Assembly (NCBI RefSeq): GCF_056712565.1
Contig: NZ_CM160072.1
Length of the DNA: 64,000 nucleotides
Direction: 5' to 3' (one strand)
Positions 25,201-34,200 of this stretch are shown piece by piece (positions within the stretch are counted from its first letter, which is position 1; each line of letters opens with the position of its first letter). A program made the position numbers.

Positions 25201-28200
25201 CGAAAGATGCGCATGGCAACGCTATCAGTGGTCTTTCGTTGTCGGCAAGTTTGACGGGGACCGCCTCTGAAGGGGCGACCGTTTCCAGTTGGACCGAAAA
25301 AGGTGACGGTTCCTATGTTGCTACGTTAACTACAGGCGGAAAGACGGGCGAGCTTCGTGTCATGCCGCTCTTCAACGGCCAGCCTGCAGCCACCGAAGCC
25401 GCGCAGCTGACTGTTATTGCCGGAGAGATGTCATCAGCGAACTCTACGCTTGTTGCGGACAATAAAACTCCAACGGTTAAAACGACGACGGAACTCACCT
25501 TCACCATGAAGGATGCGTACGGGAATCCGGTCACCGGGCTGAAGCCAGATGCACCAGTGTTTAGTGGTGCCGCCAGCACGGGGAGTGAGCGTCCTTCAGC
25601 AGGAAACTGGACAGAGAAAGGTAATGGGGTCTACGTGTCGACCTTAACGCTGGGATCTGCCGCGGGTCAGTTGTCTGTGATGCCGCGAGTGAACGGCCAA
25701 AATGCCGTTGCTCAGCCACTGGTGCTGAATGTTGCAGGTGACGCATCTAAGGCTGAGATTCGTGATATGACAGTGAAGGTTAATAACCAACTGGCTAATG
25801 GACAGTCTGCTAACCAGATCACCCTGACCGTCGTGGACAGCTATGGTAACCCGTTGCAGGGGCAAGAAGTTACGCTGACTTTACCGCAGGGTGTGACCAG
25901 CAAGACGGGGAATACAGTAACAACCAATGCGGCAGGGAAAGTGGACATTGAGCTTATGTCAACGGTTGCAGGGGAACTTGAGATCGAGGCCTCGGTGAAA
26001 AACTCTCAGAAGACGGTCAAGGTGAAATTCAAGGCGGATTTCAGTACCGGTCAGGCGAGCCTGGAGGTAGACGCCGCTGCTCAAAAAGTGGCAAACGGCA
26101 AAGATGCCTTTACGCTGACGGCAACGGTTAAGGATCAATACGGCAACCTTCTTCCTGGCGCTGTGGTCGTCTTTAATCTGCCTCGGGGCGTCAAACCGCT
26201 TGCAGACGGTAATATCATGGTGAACGCCGACAAGGAGGGTAAAGCGGAACTGAAAGTGGTTTCCGTGACTGCCGGAACCTATGAGATCACGGCGTCAGCA
26301 GGAAATGACCAGCCTTCGAATGCGCAGTCTGTAACGTTTGTGGCTGATAAGACTACGGCGACCATCTCCAGTATTGAGGTGATTGGCAACCGTGCAGTGG
26401 CGGACGGCAAAACCAAACAGACGTATAAAGTTACGGTGACTGATGCCAATAACAACCTGCTGAAAGATAGCGAAGTGACGCTGACTGCCAGCCCGGAAAA
26501 TTTAGTTCTGACTCCCAATGGGACGGCGACAACGAATGAGCAAGGGCAGGCTATTTTCACCGCCACGACCACTGTCGCAGCGACATATACACTCACGGCG
26601 AAAGTGGAACAGGCCGACGGTCAGGAATCGACGAAAACTGCCGAATCTAAATTCGTCGCGGATGATAAAAACGCGGTGCTCGCTGCATCTCCAGAGCGTG
26701 TAGATTCTCTGGTGGCGGACGGGAAGACTACTGCAACACTGACGGTTACTCTGATGTCGGGTGTCAACCCCGTAGGAGGAACCATGTGGGTCGACATTGA
26801 GGCTCCGGAAGGGGTGACAGAGGCGGATTATCAGTTCCTGCCGTCGAAAAATGACCATTTCGCGAGCGGGAAAATCACGCGTACATTTAGTACCAACAAG
26901 CCAGGTACATACACATTCACATTCAACTCTTTGACATATGGAGGGTATGAAATGAAACCAGTGACTGTGACAATTAACGCCGTTCCTGCAGATACTGAAG
27001 GCGCTGAGGAGAAATAAAAACGACGATGTAATAAATAATAATGGCGTTGACATGCGCAGCGCCATTATTTACTGAATACCTACCCTGGCACCGATTAGAC
27101 GGTGGCAGGGTAGGGTAAATCTTATGTGATGGAGTTACAGGCTAAACCGGGCGAACGGGGATAAAAATTTCGCAAACAATGTTATTGCTATCAATTTCGA
27201 CGAAGTTTTCATTGTAATAAAATCGCTCAATATCACTGCCGTTCACTCTGGCTAACCCCCTGGCAGGTAATTCCATCAGATAGAGGTTTCGCGCCCATTC
27301 AGGGTAGTGCTCCCACTCACCTTCATAGCGGAAAGAGGCATACAGTCCTCGGTTAATTGTCCACTCTTTCGGCATCTCTGAATCGGTTTGTTTGCATACC
27401 GTACCGGCAAAAGTTTCAACTGTGAGCAAATCGACCGATTTTGTTGATGGTTCGAACGTGGAGACGAAATAGATATCCGTCTTAAAATTCTTCATACATC
27501 TGACTAAATGATGACGTCGCAGTTTGACTTCTTCATCCGGTAATTTATTCGACACTTCAATATCATATTTAAATGAATTGCCAAAAATAGGTGTCTCAGG
27601 AAAGTTGACTAATCTACACTCCGTCTTTTGCTGTTGACGTATTAAAAAAGAAGGGAAGATATTTGCGAGATCCCAATAATCACGGTGGCGGTATTCACGG
27701 GGAGAGCAGCCGAATAACTTTTTAAATTCGCGGCTGAATGACTGCTGTGAATCAAAATGCAAAGAGAGTGCAATATCAAGCATAGATTTCGCGGAGAGCC
27801 GGACAAGAATGGCGGCACGACAAAGCCTTCGTTTGCGAATGTATTCTCCCAAAGGCACATGCATGAAATTTCGGAACAGAAGCTGGATGTTGCGTCTGCT
27901 GTAGCCAGATTTCTGTGCGATATCTTCGATTGAAATAGGGTGCTCAAGATTGCACTCAATCCACTCCAGGAGCTGCTGTAGAATCTTCTGCCTGATCATC
28001 ACATACTCCGTTAATTCTTTGTCATATCGCACATTTTCGTTATGTCCTGGGCCCTAAGTGTATCAAAAACAGCAAGTCCCAAGGCAAAAGCACTGATAGC
28101 GCCTGCTTCATTGCCCCAAAAATAGAGAGGTTTCAGTCCTACATTATTAATGAATTTTTTGCATAAGTGATATCAAAATCCACATACTAATTTGAGGTTA

Positions 28201-31200: not shown

Positions 31201-34200
31201 CTCCAGATTTCTCCCAGGCCGATGAACACGCAGGCTATGATTATTGATAAACTCCGCCTGGCCGTCGATCACGTCGATATTGGGCATATCCGCAAGATTA
31301 TGAAAATTCTTATTACGTAAAAAATTAACCACTTCATTTTTACGCTGTATGGCACGGACAAAATCTGTGTGCTGCTGTGCGTCATGAACCAATGTTTTGG
31401 TTGGGATACAGCCGATATTAATACAGGTCCCGCCATACATTGCATTTGATTGTTCGATGAGAGCCACACGCCAACCTGCTTTTGCCAGCGTGACGGCTAA
31501 TGTTTTTCCAGCCTTGCCAAAACCAATAATAACTGCCTGATATTTATTCATGATGATTTCCTGTCGAAACGCGTTCATTTGACATCATGACTATAGACGC
31601 AAAAGAGCAAATAACATTTCTTCACAACGCTTGATATTTTGTCTTATCGTCTGGTATTTTCTTTTTCTTAATCAGAATCACAAAACAAAAATCATGATTA
31701 ACTATTTGATGGTATTAGATTAATTATTGACTAAGATTGTTGGTGTTTGTAATCAAAAAACCACTCAGGAGTCTGATATGGATGCTCTTAGCCGTTTGTT
31801 GATGCTTAACGCTCCACAAGGAACGATCGATAAGAATTGCGTGTTAGGAAGTGACTGGCAACTTCCACATGGTGCCGGGGAATTGTCGGTTATTCGTTGG
31901 CATGCGTTAACGCAAGGAGCGGCGAAGCTGGAAATGCCGACGGGAGAGATTTTTACATTACGCCCGGGAAATGTGGTCCTGCTACCACAAAATTCAGCTC
32001 ATCGCCTGAGTCATGTCGATAATGAATCGACCTGTATTGTCTGTGGCACTCTTCGGCTGCAACATTCGGCGCGTTATTTTTTAACGTCTTTGCCGGAAAC
32101 GCTGTTTGTAGCACCAGTGAACCATAGCGTGGAATATAACTGGCTGAGGGAGGCGATCCCGTTTTTACAACAGGAATCCAGATCGGCAATGCCGGGAGTG
32201 GATGCTCTGTGTAGCCAGATCTGCGCTACATTCTTTACCCTCGCGGTGCGTGAGTGGATTGCACAGGTTAATACAGAGAAAAACATTCTCAGTTTGCTTC
32301 TGCATCCACGTCTTGGTGCGGTAATACAGCAAATGATGGAAATGCCTGGACACGCCTGGACCGTCGAATCGCTGGCCAGCATCGCCCACATGTCCCGGGC
32401 AAGTTTTGCCCAGCTTTTCCGTGATGTTTCCGGAACCACGCCGCTGGCTGTATTAACAAAGTTGCGTCTACAAATAGCGGCCCAGATGTTTTCCCGGGAA
32501 ATGCTCCCTGTTGTGGTGATCGCTGAGTCAGTAGGCTATGCCAGCGAATCATCTTTTCACAAGGCGTTTGTCCGCGAGTTTGGTTGTACTCCGGGAGAAT
32601 ATCGGGAAAGGGTCAGACAGCTTGCACCCTGAATAAAACCGCCAGAAATCAGGGCAAAGATAATCCGCATTCCGGGAGTTGTGAGCCTTTCAACTATTTC
32701 TATTTCCAACGGTAGTTTTGGGCTTTATATATTTTTTTGATGGACTCTAGCTCAGTTTTTAAATAAAAATGCAAACTAAATTGCTTCAATTAAATAAAAT
32801 CCCGACTATTACTTGATACGTGATTATTGTCGGTGATTTTTTTGTGCACCATCAGTGTATATCTCAATAACCCCTGAATAAGTAGCTCTGAATAGGTATA
32901 AGGGGTGTAGCCTTTTTAAATGGATTTCTTATGCCAAAAATGATCGTCGATTTCCCCATAAAATGTGAGCGATGCCGAAAGAAATAAAATTAGTTATTGC
33001 ATTTGAAGTTTAGATGAAAGATTATTATTTGTCATACAAATGAGGGGTGGTATGTTGCTAGCCAATTAAAAAAGAACGCCATATTTATTGATGATTGATC
33101 CCCCGGAAGGGGGGAACCATCGGGCATAAATGGGCATGAAGTAATGGAGTATTAGTTGTGAATGTCAATTTCTTTGTCACCTGCATTGGTGACGCCCTGA
33201 AATCAAGAATGGCACGAGACTCCGTGCTGCTACTGGAAAAACTCGGCTGTCGCGTAAATTTCCCGGAGAAACAAGGATGCTGCGGTCAGCCTGCGATCAA
33301 TAGTGGTTATATCAAAGAAGCGATTCCAGGGATGAAAAATCTGATCGCCGCACTGGAGGATAACGACGATCCCATTATTTCACCGGCTGGCTCTTGCACC
33401 TATGCCGTAAAAAGTTACCCGACGTATCTGGCGGATGAACCTGAATGGGCATCACGTGCCGAAAAGGTTGCCGCGCGTATGCAGGATCTCACCTCTTTTA
33501 TTGTTAATACATTAGGGGTAGTCGATGTAGGTGCCAGTTTGCAAGGGAGAGCGGTGTATCACCCATCTTGTAGCCTGGCCCGTAAGCTGGGGGTGAAGGA
33601 CGAACCACTTACGCTGCTGAAAAATGTGCGTGGACTGGAGCTGTTGACCTTTGCTGAACAGGATACCTGCTGCGGATTTGGCGGCACGTTCTCGGTCAAA
33701 ATGGCCGAAATATCCGGCGAGATGGTGAAAGAAAAGGTTGCGCACCTGATGGAAGTCCGCCCTGAGTATTTAATTGGTGCTGACGTGAGTTGCCTGCTGA
33801 ACATCAGTGGACGATTACAACGGGAAGGGCAGAAAGTCAAAGTGATGCATATTGCTGAAGTGCTGATGAGCCGCTGAGGATATAAAGATGTCGATCAAAA
33901 CCAGTAATACAGATTTTAAGACACGCATTCGTCAGCAAATTGAAGATCCGATCATGCGCAAAGCGGTGGCAAACGCGCAGCAGCGTATTGGGGCAAATCG
34001 GCAAAAAATGGTCGATGAATTGGGGCACTGGGAGGAGTGGCGCGATCGGGCCGCCCAGATACGTGATCATGTTCTGAGTAATCTCGACGCTTATCTGTAC
34101 CAGCTCTCAGAAAAAGTGACGCAAAACGGAGGTCACGTCTATTTTGCAAAAACCAAAGAAGACGCCACCCGCTACATTTTACAGGTTGCCCAACGCAAAA

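What the first reader, a model, noticed from the sequence alone, without database searches (positions are those of the whole stretch)
27142..32632. rcl reactive-chlorine locus flanked by a Rob-like regulator and an extra aldo-keto reductase
rclR is divergent from rclABC as expected. Immediately to the left are a full-length AraC-HTH plus GyrI-like regulator (296 aa) and an aldo-keto reductase not recalled at this position in K-12. The regulator appears complete here, with both the HTH and a C-terminal effector-binding domain, whereas K-12 ykgA is recalled as shorter.
Basis: partly seen in the sequence, partly recalled or inferred. Interest (0 to 1): 0.35.

Follow-up and report, generated by a model that had tools for sequence, protein, structure and literature searches.

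The report
Intact ykgA and ykgQ beside rcl
This E. coli strain carries working copies of a Rob-like regulator gene and an aldo-keto reductase gene that are broken remnants (ykgA, ykgQ) in laboratory strain K-12; this is published strain-to-strain variation, not a new part of the chlorine-stress system.

Summary
The window is E. coli, 100% identical here to type strain ATCC 11775. It carries fdeC, a Rob-like AraC/GyrI regulator, an aldo-keto reductase (AKR), rclCBA and a divergent rclR.

The two flanking genes are the intact forms of K-12 pseudogenes. K-12 ykgA (b0300) lost its last ~65 codons, together with 3.4 kb of fdeC, to a deletion now occupied by IS3A. K-12 ykgQ (b4631) is a 129-bp remnant of the AKR left by two internal deletions. 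The AKR interior is present in 2949 of 5426 complete E. coli genomes, and the ykgA 3' end in 4682.

Nothing ties the pair to the rcl system:
- E. whittamii has fdeC-ykgA-AKR-ykgEFG with no rcl genes.
- K-12 has a working rcl system with both genes dead.
- No sequence motif is shared with the rclA/rclR control region.
- In published CFT073 RNA-seq, HOCl raises ykgA about 4-fold and the AKR about 2.5-fold, against 70-170-fold for rclABC.

The regulator's conserved partner is the fdeC adhesin gene. The two are adjacent and convergent in six lineages with different flanks. The AKR is a widespread, highly conserved gene found in unrelated contexts elsewhere.

Nesta et al. 2012 already described this fdeC cluster and its decay in K-12. 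Verdict: ordinary and already known.

The parts
22767..27017 (+). fdeC (eaeH), a full-length 1416-aa inverse-autotransporter adhesin. It is convergent with the regulator gene. In K-12 it is truncated at the position equivalent to window 23642.
   Evidence: An FdeC-type gene lies next to a YkgA-type gene in six lineages.
27037..27114 (.). Two strong hairpins (27037-27069 and 27079-27114) between the convergent fdeC and ykgA genes. They are probably terminators.
   Evidence: MFE -50.3 kcal/mol, z = -7.3 against shuffles.
27142..27999 (-). Intact ykgA, a 285-aa Rob-like AraC/XylS regulator. The bipartite HTH covers residues ~1-110 and the GyrI-like effector domain ~127-283. The longest ORF extends to GTG 28032 (296 aa).
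   Evidence: dN/dS against E. whittamii is 0.155.
28000..28246 (.). Shared control region between the divergent ykgA and AKR genes. The block ~28148-28195 is almost invariant between E. coli and E. whittamii. No canonical marbox is present.
28247..29116 (+). Intact aldo-keto reductase of 289 aa, the ancestor of K-12 pseudogene ykgQ. The catalytic tetrad D44/Y49/K78/H112 is present.
   Evidence: dN/dS 0.064. RefSeq WP_001295799.1.
29205..29242 (.). G+C-rich hairpin between the convergent AKR and rclC genes.
   Evidence: MFE -30.8 kcal/mol, z = -4.6.
29276..31578 (-). rclC (29276-29878), rclB (29881-30132) and rclA (30226-31578), the RclR-activated operon. The longest ORFs are given; RefSeq starts are slightly downstream.
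31727..32632 (+). rclR, the reactive-chlorine-specific AraC-family activator, divergent from rclABC. The RefSeq CDS is 855 nt and ends at 32632.

Best explanation
The window shows the undegraded state of the E. coli ykg/fdeC region. It is three independent units that happen to be neighbours.

1. fdeC plus ykgA. ykgA encodes a full-length Rob paralogue. By inference it works like Rob: a small molecule binds the C-terminal GyrI-like domain and frees or activates the N-terminal double HTH. Its recognition helix 3 differs from that of MarA/SoxS/Rob, so it probably reads a site other than the marbox.

2. A monocistronic aldo-keto reductase gene, divergent from ykgA. By inference it is an NADPH-dependent reducer of reactive aldehydes and dicarbonyls, possibly under YkgA control through the shared 247-bp region.

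3. The rclR/rclABC cassette, regulated separately.

K-12 lost the end of ykgA, most of fdeC and most of the AKR through deletions.

Shown here: gene identities, the K-12 lesions, the population frequencies, the independence of the three units, and purifying selection on both genes. Inferred: the ligand-sensing mechanism, the targets of YkgA and the substrates of the AKR.
For: Identity and lesions:
- The region is 100% identical to ATCC 11775 and annotated the same way.
- In K-12, ykgA and ykgQ are annotated pseudogenes flanked by IS3A.
- The blastn breakpoints are mapped. The second AKR deletion lies between two copies of GATTTCTCA, 100 bp apart.
- Protein alignments show the truncations.

Population (5426 complete genomes):
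- AKR interior present in 2949 genomes.
- ykgA 3' end present in 4682.
- An intermediate state, regulator intact plus AKR remnant, occurs in NCTC10537.

Function retained:
- dN/dS between E. coli and E. whittamii is 0.155 for ykgA (HTH 0.04, GyrI-like 0.24) and 0.064 for the AKR.
- Both genes are transcribed in CFT073, with baseMean 842 and 3318.

Independence from rcl:
- E. whittamii, Escherichia sp. E1V33 and two further assemblies have fdeC-ykgA-AKR-ykgEFG. Window ~29117-32720 is replaced there by ~55 bp.
- AKR and rclC are convergent with a hairpin between them.
- No k-mer of 9 nt or more is shared between the ykgA/AKR and rclA/rclR control regions.

Regulator-adhesin linkage:
- A YkgA-type gene lies convergent with an FdeC-type gene in E. 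coli, E. whittamii, E. marmotae (between hipBA and ydeN), 'E69', a S. enterica isolate and Kosakonia sacchari. The outer flanks differ in each case.

AKR independence:
- Orthologues at 80-86% identity in Klebsiella, Kluyvera, S. salamae and Vibrio sit in unrelated contexts.

Prior description:
- PMC3324786 and PMC2064960.
Against: - No experiment or binding-site evidence links YkgA to the AKR or to fdeC. The AKR pairing was seen only in E. coli and its E. whittamii-like relatives (L008, L009, L018, L019).
- The fdeC promoter lies 4.3 kb from ykgA, and the two genes are convergent, which is not the classic regulator-target layout.
- ykgA, the AKR and fdeC all rise modestly with HOCl in CFT073 (log2 2.0, 1.3 and 1.4). 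A stress connection is therefore not excluded.
- Whether the rcl difference between E. coli and E. whittamii is an insertion or a deletion was not resolved.
Confidence: 0.9

Rival explanations
1. ykgA and the AKR are accessory members of the reactive-chlorine response. They would be co-regulated with rclABC, directly by RclR or by YkgA sensing HOCl-derived electrophiles, and the AKR would clear chlorination-derived aldehydes.
For: - The genes are physically adjacent in about half of E. coli genomes.
- Both are significantly up in HOCl-treated CFT073: ykgA log2FC 2.04 (padj 1e-8) and c0417 log2FC 1.33 (padj 3e-8).
- AKRs of this type reduce reactive carbonyls (established for DkgA and YvgN/YtbE; not tested here).
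Against: - Induction is 2.5-4-fold, against 70-170-fold for rclABC in the same table. That table lists a very large number of induced genes, including the neighbours fdeC and ykgE.
- E. whittamii keeps the pair without rcl.
- K-12, where the RclR regulon was defined, has both genes dead.
- No motif is shared with the rclA/rclR region.
- AKR orthologues elsewhere are not next to rcl genes.
Confidence: 0.1
2. YkgA is the dedicated, ligand-responsive regulator of the FdeC adhesin. The AKR would be an unrelated neighbour.
For: - The regulator and the inverse autotransporter stay adjacent, convergent and ~120-150 bp apart in six lineages and at least four different chromosomal contexts.
- Nesta et al. 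group the flanking regulators with fdeC as one cluster, and note that adhesin biogenesis in general is tightly controlled.
- fdeC and ykgA both rise in HOCl-treated CFT073.
Against: - Co-inheritance as a two-gene island would give the same pattern without any regulation.
- The convergent layout puts ykgA 4.3 kb from the fdeC promoter.
- The only fdeC regulator cited in the papers I read is H-NS with temperature (Easton 2014, cited).
- No binding site was identified.
- One YkgA orthologue (L077) lies among IS elements with no adhesin gene.
Confidence: 0.2
3. YkgA is simply a redundant fourth activator of the mar/sox/rob regulon, binding marboxes as Rob does.
For: - The architecture is full-length Rob, and the best NCBIfam hit is RobA.
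- Helix 6 (DSQQSFSREF) is close to that of Rob, MarA and SoxS.
- ykgA is grouped with soxS as a superoxide-stress gene in an AIEC transcriptome.
Against: - The RobA score is 191.7 bits against a cut-off of 380, and identity to Rob is only 32%.
- Helix 3 reads SGYSRRNIQLLF where Rob, MarA and SoxS read GYSKW(H/Y)LQRMF. The Trp and Arg that contact the GCAC element in MarA (my recollection of Rhee et al. 1998) are Arg and Leu. This helix is invariant across YkgA orthologues.
- No marbox with three or fewer mismatches lies between ykgA and the AKR. The only nearby match, 27998-28016, straddles the ykgA start codon. Window-wide matches are below chance (127 found, 148 expected).
- PMC2064960 states that YkgA's function and targets are unidentified.
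Confidence: 0.1

Closest known systems
E. coli K-12 pseudogenes ykgA (b0300) and ykgQ (b4631)
   Same: Same locus and same genes. K-12 ykgA is 92% identical over its retained ~220 codons, and ykgQ is 98% identical over the last 42 AKR codons.
   Different: Both genes are complete here. K-12 lacks the last ~65 codons of ykgA (IS3A junction) and about 680 bp of AKR interior, lost in two deletions.
Rob (right origin-binding protein), the MarA/SoxS/Rob branch of AraC/XylS
   Same: Same two-domain architecture, with an N-terminal double HTH and a C-terminal GyrI-like ligand domain. The alignment runs over the full length.
   Different: Identity is 32%, and the protein falls below the RobA equivalog cut-off. 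Recognition helix 3 is changed (W to R, R to L). No marbox is nearby, and no targets or ligands are known.
The 'fdeC cluster' of ExPEC (Nesta et al. 2012, PMC3324786)
   Same: This is that cluster: fdeC with up to three putative regulators and five putative reductases/hydrolases, degraded in K-12. The window also carries the upstream 6.2 kb part that K-12 lacks.
   Different: The passages of that paper I read assign no role to the regulators or reductases and do not mention the rcl genes.
DkgA and YvgN/YtbE-type aldo-keto reductases (methylglyoxal / 2,5-diketogluconate reductases)
   Same: Same (alpha/beta)8 AKR family with a D-Y-K-H tetrad. The best solved relatives are 1vp5, 4mhb, 3b3d (annotated 'putative morphine dehydrogenase'; I recall it as B. 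subtilis YtbE) and 3d3f (YvgN).
   Different: Identity to DkgA is only 39%, and the score is 234 bits against a cut-off of 425. There is a three-residue gap after the catalytic His (HQ in place of HWP). It belongs to a separate orthologue group that is 80-86% conserved from Enterobacteriaceae to Vibrio.
RclR regulon (rclR / rclABC)
   Same: It is physically adjacent. All four rcl genes here are canonical.
   Different: ykgA and the AKR occur without rcl, and rcl occurs without them. The transcription units are separate, no motif is shared, and HOCl induction is about 30-fold weaker.

Membership tests
K-12 ykgA / ykgQ loci (orthology) | Collinear DNA alignment to b0300 and b4631 with the same flanking genes | tested here: met
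   One search gives blocks at 95-98% identity. One search shows the same neighbours (eaeH, rclC). Searches give the protein alignments.
Rob-type AraC/XylS regulator | N-terminal bipartite HTH (PF12833/PF00165) plus a C-terminal GyrI-like domain (PF06445) | tested here: met
   One search shows a full-length alignment to Rob structures 7vwy and 1d5y.
Rob-type AraC/XylS regulator | Reaches the NCBIfam RobA equivalog cut-off, i.e. is Rob itself | tested here: not met
   191.7 bits against 380 (NF012228) and 168.8 against 426 (NF011701).
MarA/SoxS/Rob regulon activators | Conserved marbox-contacting residues in recognition helix 3 | tested here: not met
   YkgA has SRRNIQLLF where Rob, MarA and SoxS have SKW(H/Y)LQRMF. 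This is invariant in 17 YkgA-family sequences. Which residues contact DNA rests on my recollection of the MarA-DNA structure.
MarA/SoxS/Rob regulon activators | Binds the marbox and activates mar/sox/rob promoters | not testable with these tools
   Only indirect evidence: no marbox with three or fewer mismatches in 28017-28246, and window-wide matches below chance.
Aldo-keto reductase superfamily | PF00248 domain and the Asp-Tyr-Lys-His catalytic tetrad | tested here: met
   (4.9e-43). D44, Y49, K78 and H112 align with the DkgA tetrad motifs.
DkgA / DkgB (2,5-didehydrogluconate / methylglyoxal reductase equivalogs) | Score above the equivalog cut-off | tested here: not met
   233.9 against 425 (DkgA) and 163.5 against 327 (DkgB). 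Identity to DkgA is 39%.
Aldo-keto reductase superfamily | NAD(P)H-dependent carbonyl reduction | not testable with these tools
   Needs an enzyme assay.
Rcl reactive-chlorine system (as extra members) | Co-occurrence with rclRABC across genomes | tested here: not met
   E. whittamii and related assemblies have the pair without rcl. K-12 and NCTC10537 have rcl without an intact pair. The AKR interior is present in 2949 of 5426 genomes.
Rcl reactive-chlorine system (as extra members) | Strong, specific HOCl induction comparable to rclABC | tested here: inconclusive
   CFT073 RNA-seq (PMC9600549, Table S1): ykgA log2 2.04 and AKR 1.33, against rclC 7.40, rclB 6.72 and rclA 6.12. Dependence on RclR was not tested.
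Rcl reactive-chlorine system (as extra members) | Shared operator with the rclA/rclR control region, or the same transcription unit | tested here: not met
   No shared k-mer of 9 nt or more. AKR is convergent with rclC, with a hairpin between them.
Rcl system proper (rclR, rclA, rclB, rclC) | All four equivalog models above cut-off, with rclR divergent from rclABC | tested here: met

The most novel reading that the evidence does not exclude
The YkgA-type Rob paralogue and the FdeC-type inverse-autotransporter adhesin form a conserved two-gene module, seen in six lineages across Escherichia, Salmonella and Kosakonia in different chromosomal contexts. In this reading YkgA senses a host-derived or stress-derived small molecule through its GyrI-like domain and switches on the otherwise silent adhesin. 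In E. coli it may also switch on the divergent AKR. K-12 would have lost the whole circuit.
Probability: 0.15. Interest if true: 0.4.

Novelty: already known. Interest (0 to 1): 0.1.

Why it matters
It matters little as a discovery. The gene content is annotated in thousands of RefSeq genomes, the cluster was drawn in 2012, and the K-12 genes are catalogued pseudogenes.

Its practical value is as a reminder that K-12 is a degraded reference for this region. Three separate deletions removed about 10.6 kb, including an adhesin, a Rob paralogue and three AKRs.

As a result YkgA, the only uncharacterised member of the MarA/SoxS/Rob group in E. coli, can only be studied properly in non-K-12 strains such as CFT073 or the type strain. 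The conserved ykgA-fdeC linkage gives a concrete first hypothesis for such work.

Tried and rejected
- Canonical marbox scan (AYnGCACnnWnnRYYAAAY, up to three mismatches). There was no hit between ykgA and the AKR, and the window-wide count was below chance.
- Search for a motif shared between the ykgA/AKR region and the rclA/rclR, AKR/rclC or fdeC/ykgA intergenic regions. Only chance-level 8-9-mers were found.
- Short repeats and palindromes in 27990-28260. The 12-nt inverted repeat at 28193-28218 is not conserved in E. whittamii, and no changes are compensatory.
- Sigma-70 promoter and terminator scan of 26900-29400. Counts were at shuffle level.
- Rfam scan of 20000-37000. No family matched.
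- Idea that K-12 yneL, next to hipA, is the remnant of a second ykgA copy, prompted by the E. marmotae locus. Rejected: there is no DNA or protein similarity.
- Idea that the AKR travels with a Rob-like regulator in other genera. Rejected: Klebsiella, Vibrio and Kluyvera contexts lack one. The GyrI-type regulator 3.5 kb away in S. salamae is only 27% identical, no closer than Rob.
- Martin, Gillette & Rosner 2000, 'The ykgA gene of E. coli', is not in the library, so I could not use its content.
- Locus-tag text searches of the literature (c0416, c0417, ECs0336, Z0376) returned unrelated hits apart from one ECs0336 mention in PMC2323221, which I did not open.

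
Full report
**What is there**

The ORF list shows this order: fdeC/eaeH (22767-27017, +), an AraC-type regulator (27142-28032, -), an aldo-keto reductase (28232-29116, +), rclC, rclB and rclA (29276-31578, -), rclR (31727-32632, +), then ykgEFG.

- Pfam gives the regulator HTH_18, HTH_AraC and a GyrI-like domain, and gives the reductase Aldo_ket_red.
- NCBIfam places all four rcl proteins above their equivalog cut-offs. The regulator scores best against RobA, but at half the cut-off. The reductase scores best against DkgA, also at about half.
- The region is 100% identical to E. coli ATCC 11775 (= DSM 30083), whose RefSeq annotation lists the same genes.
- RefSeq and all orthologues start the regulator at ATG 27999 (285 aa, not 296). 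They start the reductase at GTG 28247 (289 aa), which has a GGAGGGA ribosome-binding site 6 nt upstream.

**Comparison with K-12**

MG1655 has eaeH (pseudogene), IS3A, ykgA (pseudogene b0300), ykgQ (pseudogene b4631) and rclC at this position. A blastn comparison maps the differences.

- K-12 lacks window 23643-27338, and IS3A sits in that position. This removes 3.4 kb of fdeC and the last 197 nt of ykgA.
- K-12 also lacks about 28263-28847 and 28897-28987, inside the reductase gene. The second deletion lies between two copies of GATTTCTCA, 100 bp apart.
- At the protein level, K-12 YkgA matches to about residue 220 and then reads into IS3 sequence. ykgQ encodes only the last 42 residues of the reductase.
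- K-12 further lacks window 15985-22215. That segment carries a flavin oxidoreductase, an alpha/beta hydrolase, two LysR regulators and two more AKRs.

**Population**

Among 5426 complete E. coli genomes:

| Segment | Genomes with it |
|---|---|
| Any part of 27000-29300 | 5074 |
| AKR interior | 2949 |
| ykgA 3' end | 4682 |

There are three states:
- both genes intact (B2 strains, O157:H7, W and others);
- regulator intact with an AKR remnant (e.g. NCTC10537);
- the K-12 state.

Many truncated YkgA variants also appear in the protein database, so decay has happened repeatedly.

**Are the intact genes functional?**

- Between this strain and E. whittamii, dN/dS is 0.155 for ykgA (0.04 in the HTH part, 0.24 in the GyrI-like part) and 0.064 for the AKR.
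- The AKR keeps the D44/Y49/K78/H112 tetrad.
- Both genes are transcribed in UPEC CFT073, with baseMean 842 and 3318.

**Relation to rcl**

- Four Escherichia assemblies outside E. coli have fdeC-ykgA-AKR-ykgEFG with no rcl genes: E. whittamii, Escherichia sp. E1V33 and two further assemblies. Window ~29117-32720 is replaced there by ~55 bp.
- K-12, where the RclR regulon was defined, has rcl without the pair.
- AKR and rclC are convergent and separated by a strong hairpin.
- The ykgA/AKR and rclA/rclR control regions share no k-mer of 9 nt or more.
- Published RNA-seq of CFT073 with and without HOCl (PMC9600549, Table S1) gives the log2 increases below. The same table lists a very large number of induced genes.

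| Gene | log2 increase with HOCl |
|---|---|
| rclC | 7.40 |
| rclB | 6.72 |
| rclA | 6.12 |
| rclR | 3.19 |
| ykgE | 3.19 |
| ykgA (c0416) | 2.04 |
| fdeC (c0415) | 1.41 |
| AKR (c0417) | 1.33 |

The pair responds to HOCl modestly and non-specifically. It is not part of the rcl unit.

**What the two genes are linked to**

Close YkgA relatives (64-86% identity) were examined in their genomic contexts.

- In E. whittamii, E. marmotae (between hipBA and ydeN), a lineage labelled 'E. coli E69' (next to type II secretion genes), a S. enterica isolate and Kosakonia sacchari, the regulator gene is followed at ~120-150 bp by a convergent FdeC-type inverse autotransporter. The outer flanks all differ.
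- Only the ykg-locus version, in E. coli and E. whittamii, has the AKR.
- AKR orthologues are 80-86% identical from Klebsiella, Kluyvera and S. salamae to Vibrio, and they sit in unrelated neighbourhoods.
- A GyrI-type regulator 3.5 kb from the S. salamae copy is only 27% identical to YkgA, no closer than it is to Rob.

The conserved partner of ykgA is therefore fdeC, not the AKR and not rcl.

**Mechanism (inferred)**

- YkgA aligns with Rob over its whole length. It probably works the same way, with ligand binding to the GyrI-like domain controlling the N-terminal activator.
- Its helix 6 resembles that of Rob, MarA and SoxS. Its helix 3 reads SRRNIQLLF where they read SKW(H/Y)LQRMF, and this is invariant across the YkgA family.
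- No canonical marbox lies in the 247-bp divergent region. A 48-nt block at ~28148-28195 is almost invariant between E. coli and E. whittamii and is the best candidate control element.
- Whether YkgA controls the AKR, fdeC, both or neither cannot be decided here.
- By analogy with DkgA and YvgN/YtbE, the AKR most likely reduces reactive aldehydes or dicarbonyls with NADPH. This was not tested.

**Prior knowledge**

- PMC2064960 lists YkgA with MarA and Rob as a SoxS paralogue. It cites Martin, Gillette & Rosner 2000, 'The ykgA gene of E. coli', and says that YkgA's function and targets are unidentified.
- Nesta et al. [quoted passage not shown]
- PMC11148124 describes the IS3 element at the eaeH/ykgA junction.
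- An AIEC study reports ykgA up-regulated on ethanolamine and absent mostly from phylogroup A strains.

**Verdict**

The feature is ordinary, annotated and already published strain variation. The implied association with reactive-chlorine defence is not supported.

The only mildly new point from this work is the cross-genus ykgA-fdeC linkage. It suggests, but does not show, a regulator-adhesin module.

Noticed in passing
window 15985-22215: K-12 lacks this 6.2-kb segment and keeps only the ykgP remnant. It carries a flavin oxidoreductase (15893-17035), an alpha/beta hydrolase (17207-18127), two LysR regulators (18221-19210 and 19335-20303) and two further aldo-keto reductases (20334-21323 and 21350-22201). 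With the AKR at 28247, that makes three AKR genes within 9 kb.
   Followed up: partly
window 22767-27999; loci L004, L019, L020, L076, L078: A YkgA-type regulator gene and an FdeC-type inverse-autotransporter gene are adjacent and convergent in six lineages: E. coli, E. whittamii, E. marmotae, 'E69', a S. enterica isolate and Kosakonia sacchari. The outer flanks differ each time, which suggests a two-gene module.
   Followed up: partly
window 27142-27338: The last 197 nt of ykgA fall into two allele classes within E. coli. About 1476 genomes match at only 80-90% identity (about 86% in the rows listed), far more divergent than typical E. coli core genes. K-12 and the abundant 283-aa cluster P0002 share a C-terminal sequence that differs from this window's, so they may represent the divergent class; this was not checked.
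   Followed up: no
window 29117-32720 vs L008/L018/L019: The whole rclRABC cassette is an indel relative to E. whittamii-like genomes. About 55 bp stand in its place between the AKR stop codon and the ykgE upstream region. The direction, insertion or deletion, was not resolved.
   Followed up: partly
L008:5607-6000 and L019, equivalent to window ~28085-28103: E. whittamii-like genomes carry an extra ~147 bp in the ykgA-AKR intergenic region, on the ykgA side of the conserved block.
   Followed up: no
window 28247-29116: This AKR orthologue group is unusually conserved across distant Gammaproteobacteria: 80-82% identity to Vibrio, Marinomonas and Marinobacterium proteins. Yet it sits in different neighbourhoods, which is compatible with horizontal spread of a single gene.
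   Followed up: partly
window 27037-27114 and 29205-29242: Very stable hairpins lie between both convergent gene pairs, fdeC|ykgA (z = -7.3) and AKR|rclC (z = -4.6). They are probably terminators or REP-like elements.
   Followed up: no
L077 (GCA_902843955.1): A 64%-identical YkgA orthologue sits among several IS3-family transposase genes, next to an EAL-domain gene and with no adhesin gene.
   Followed up: no
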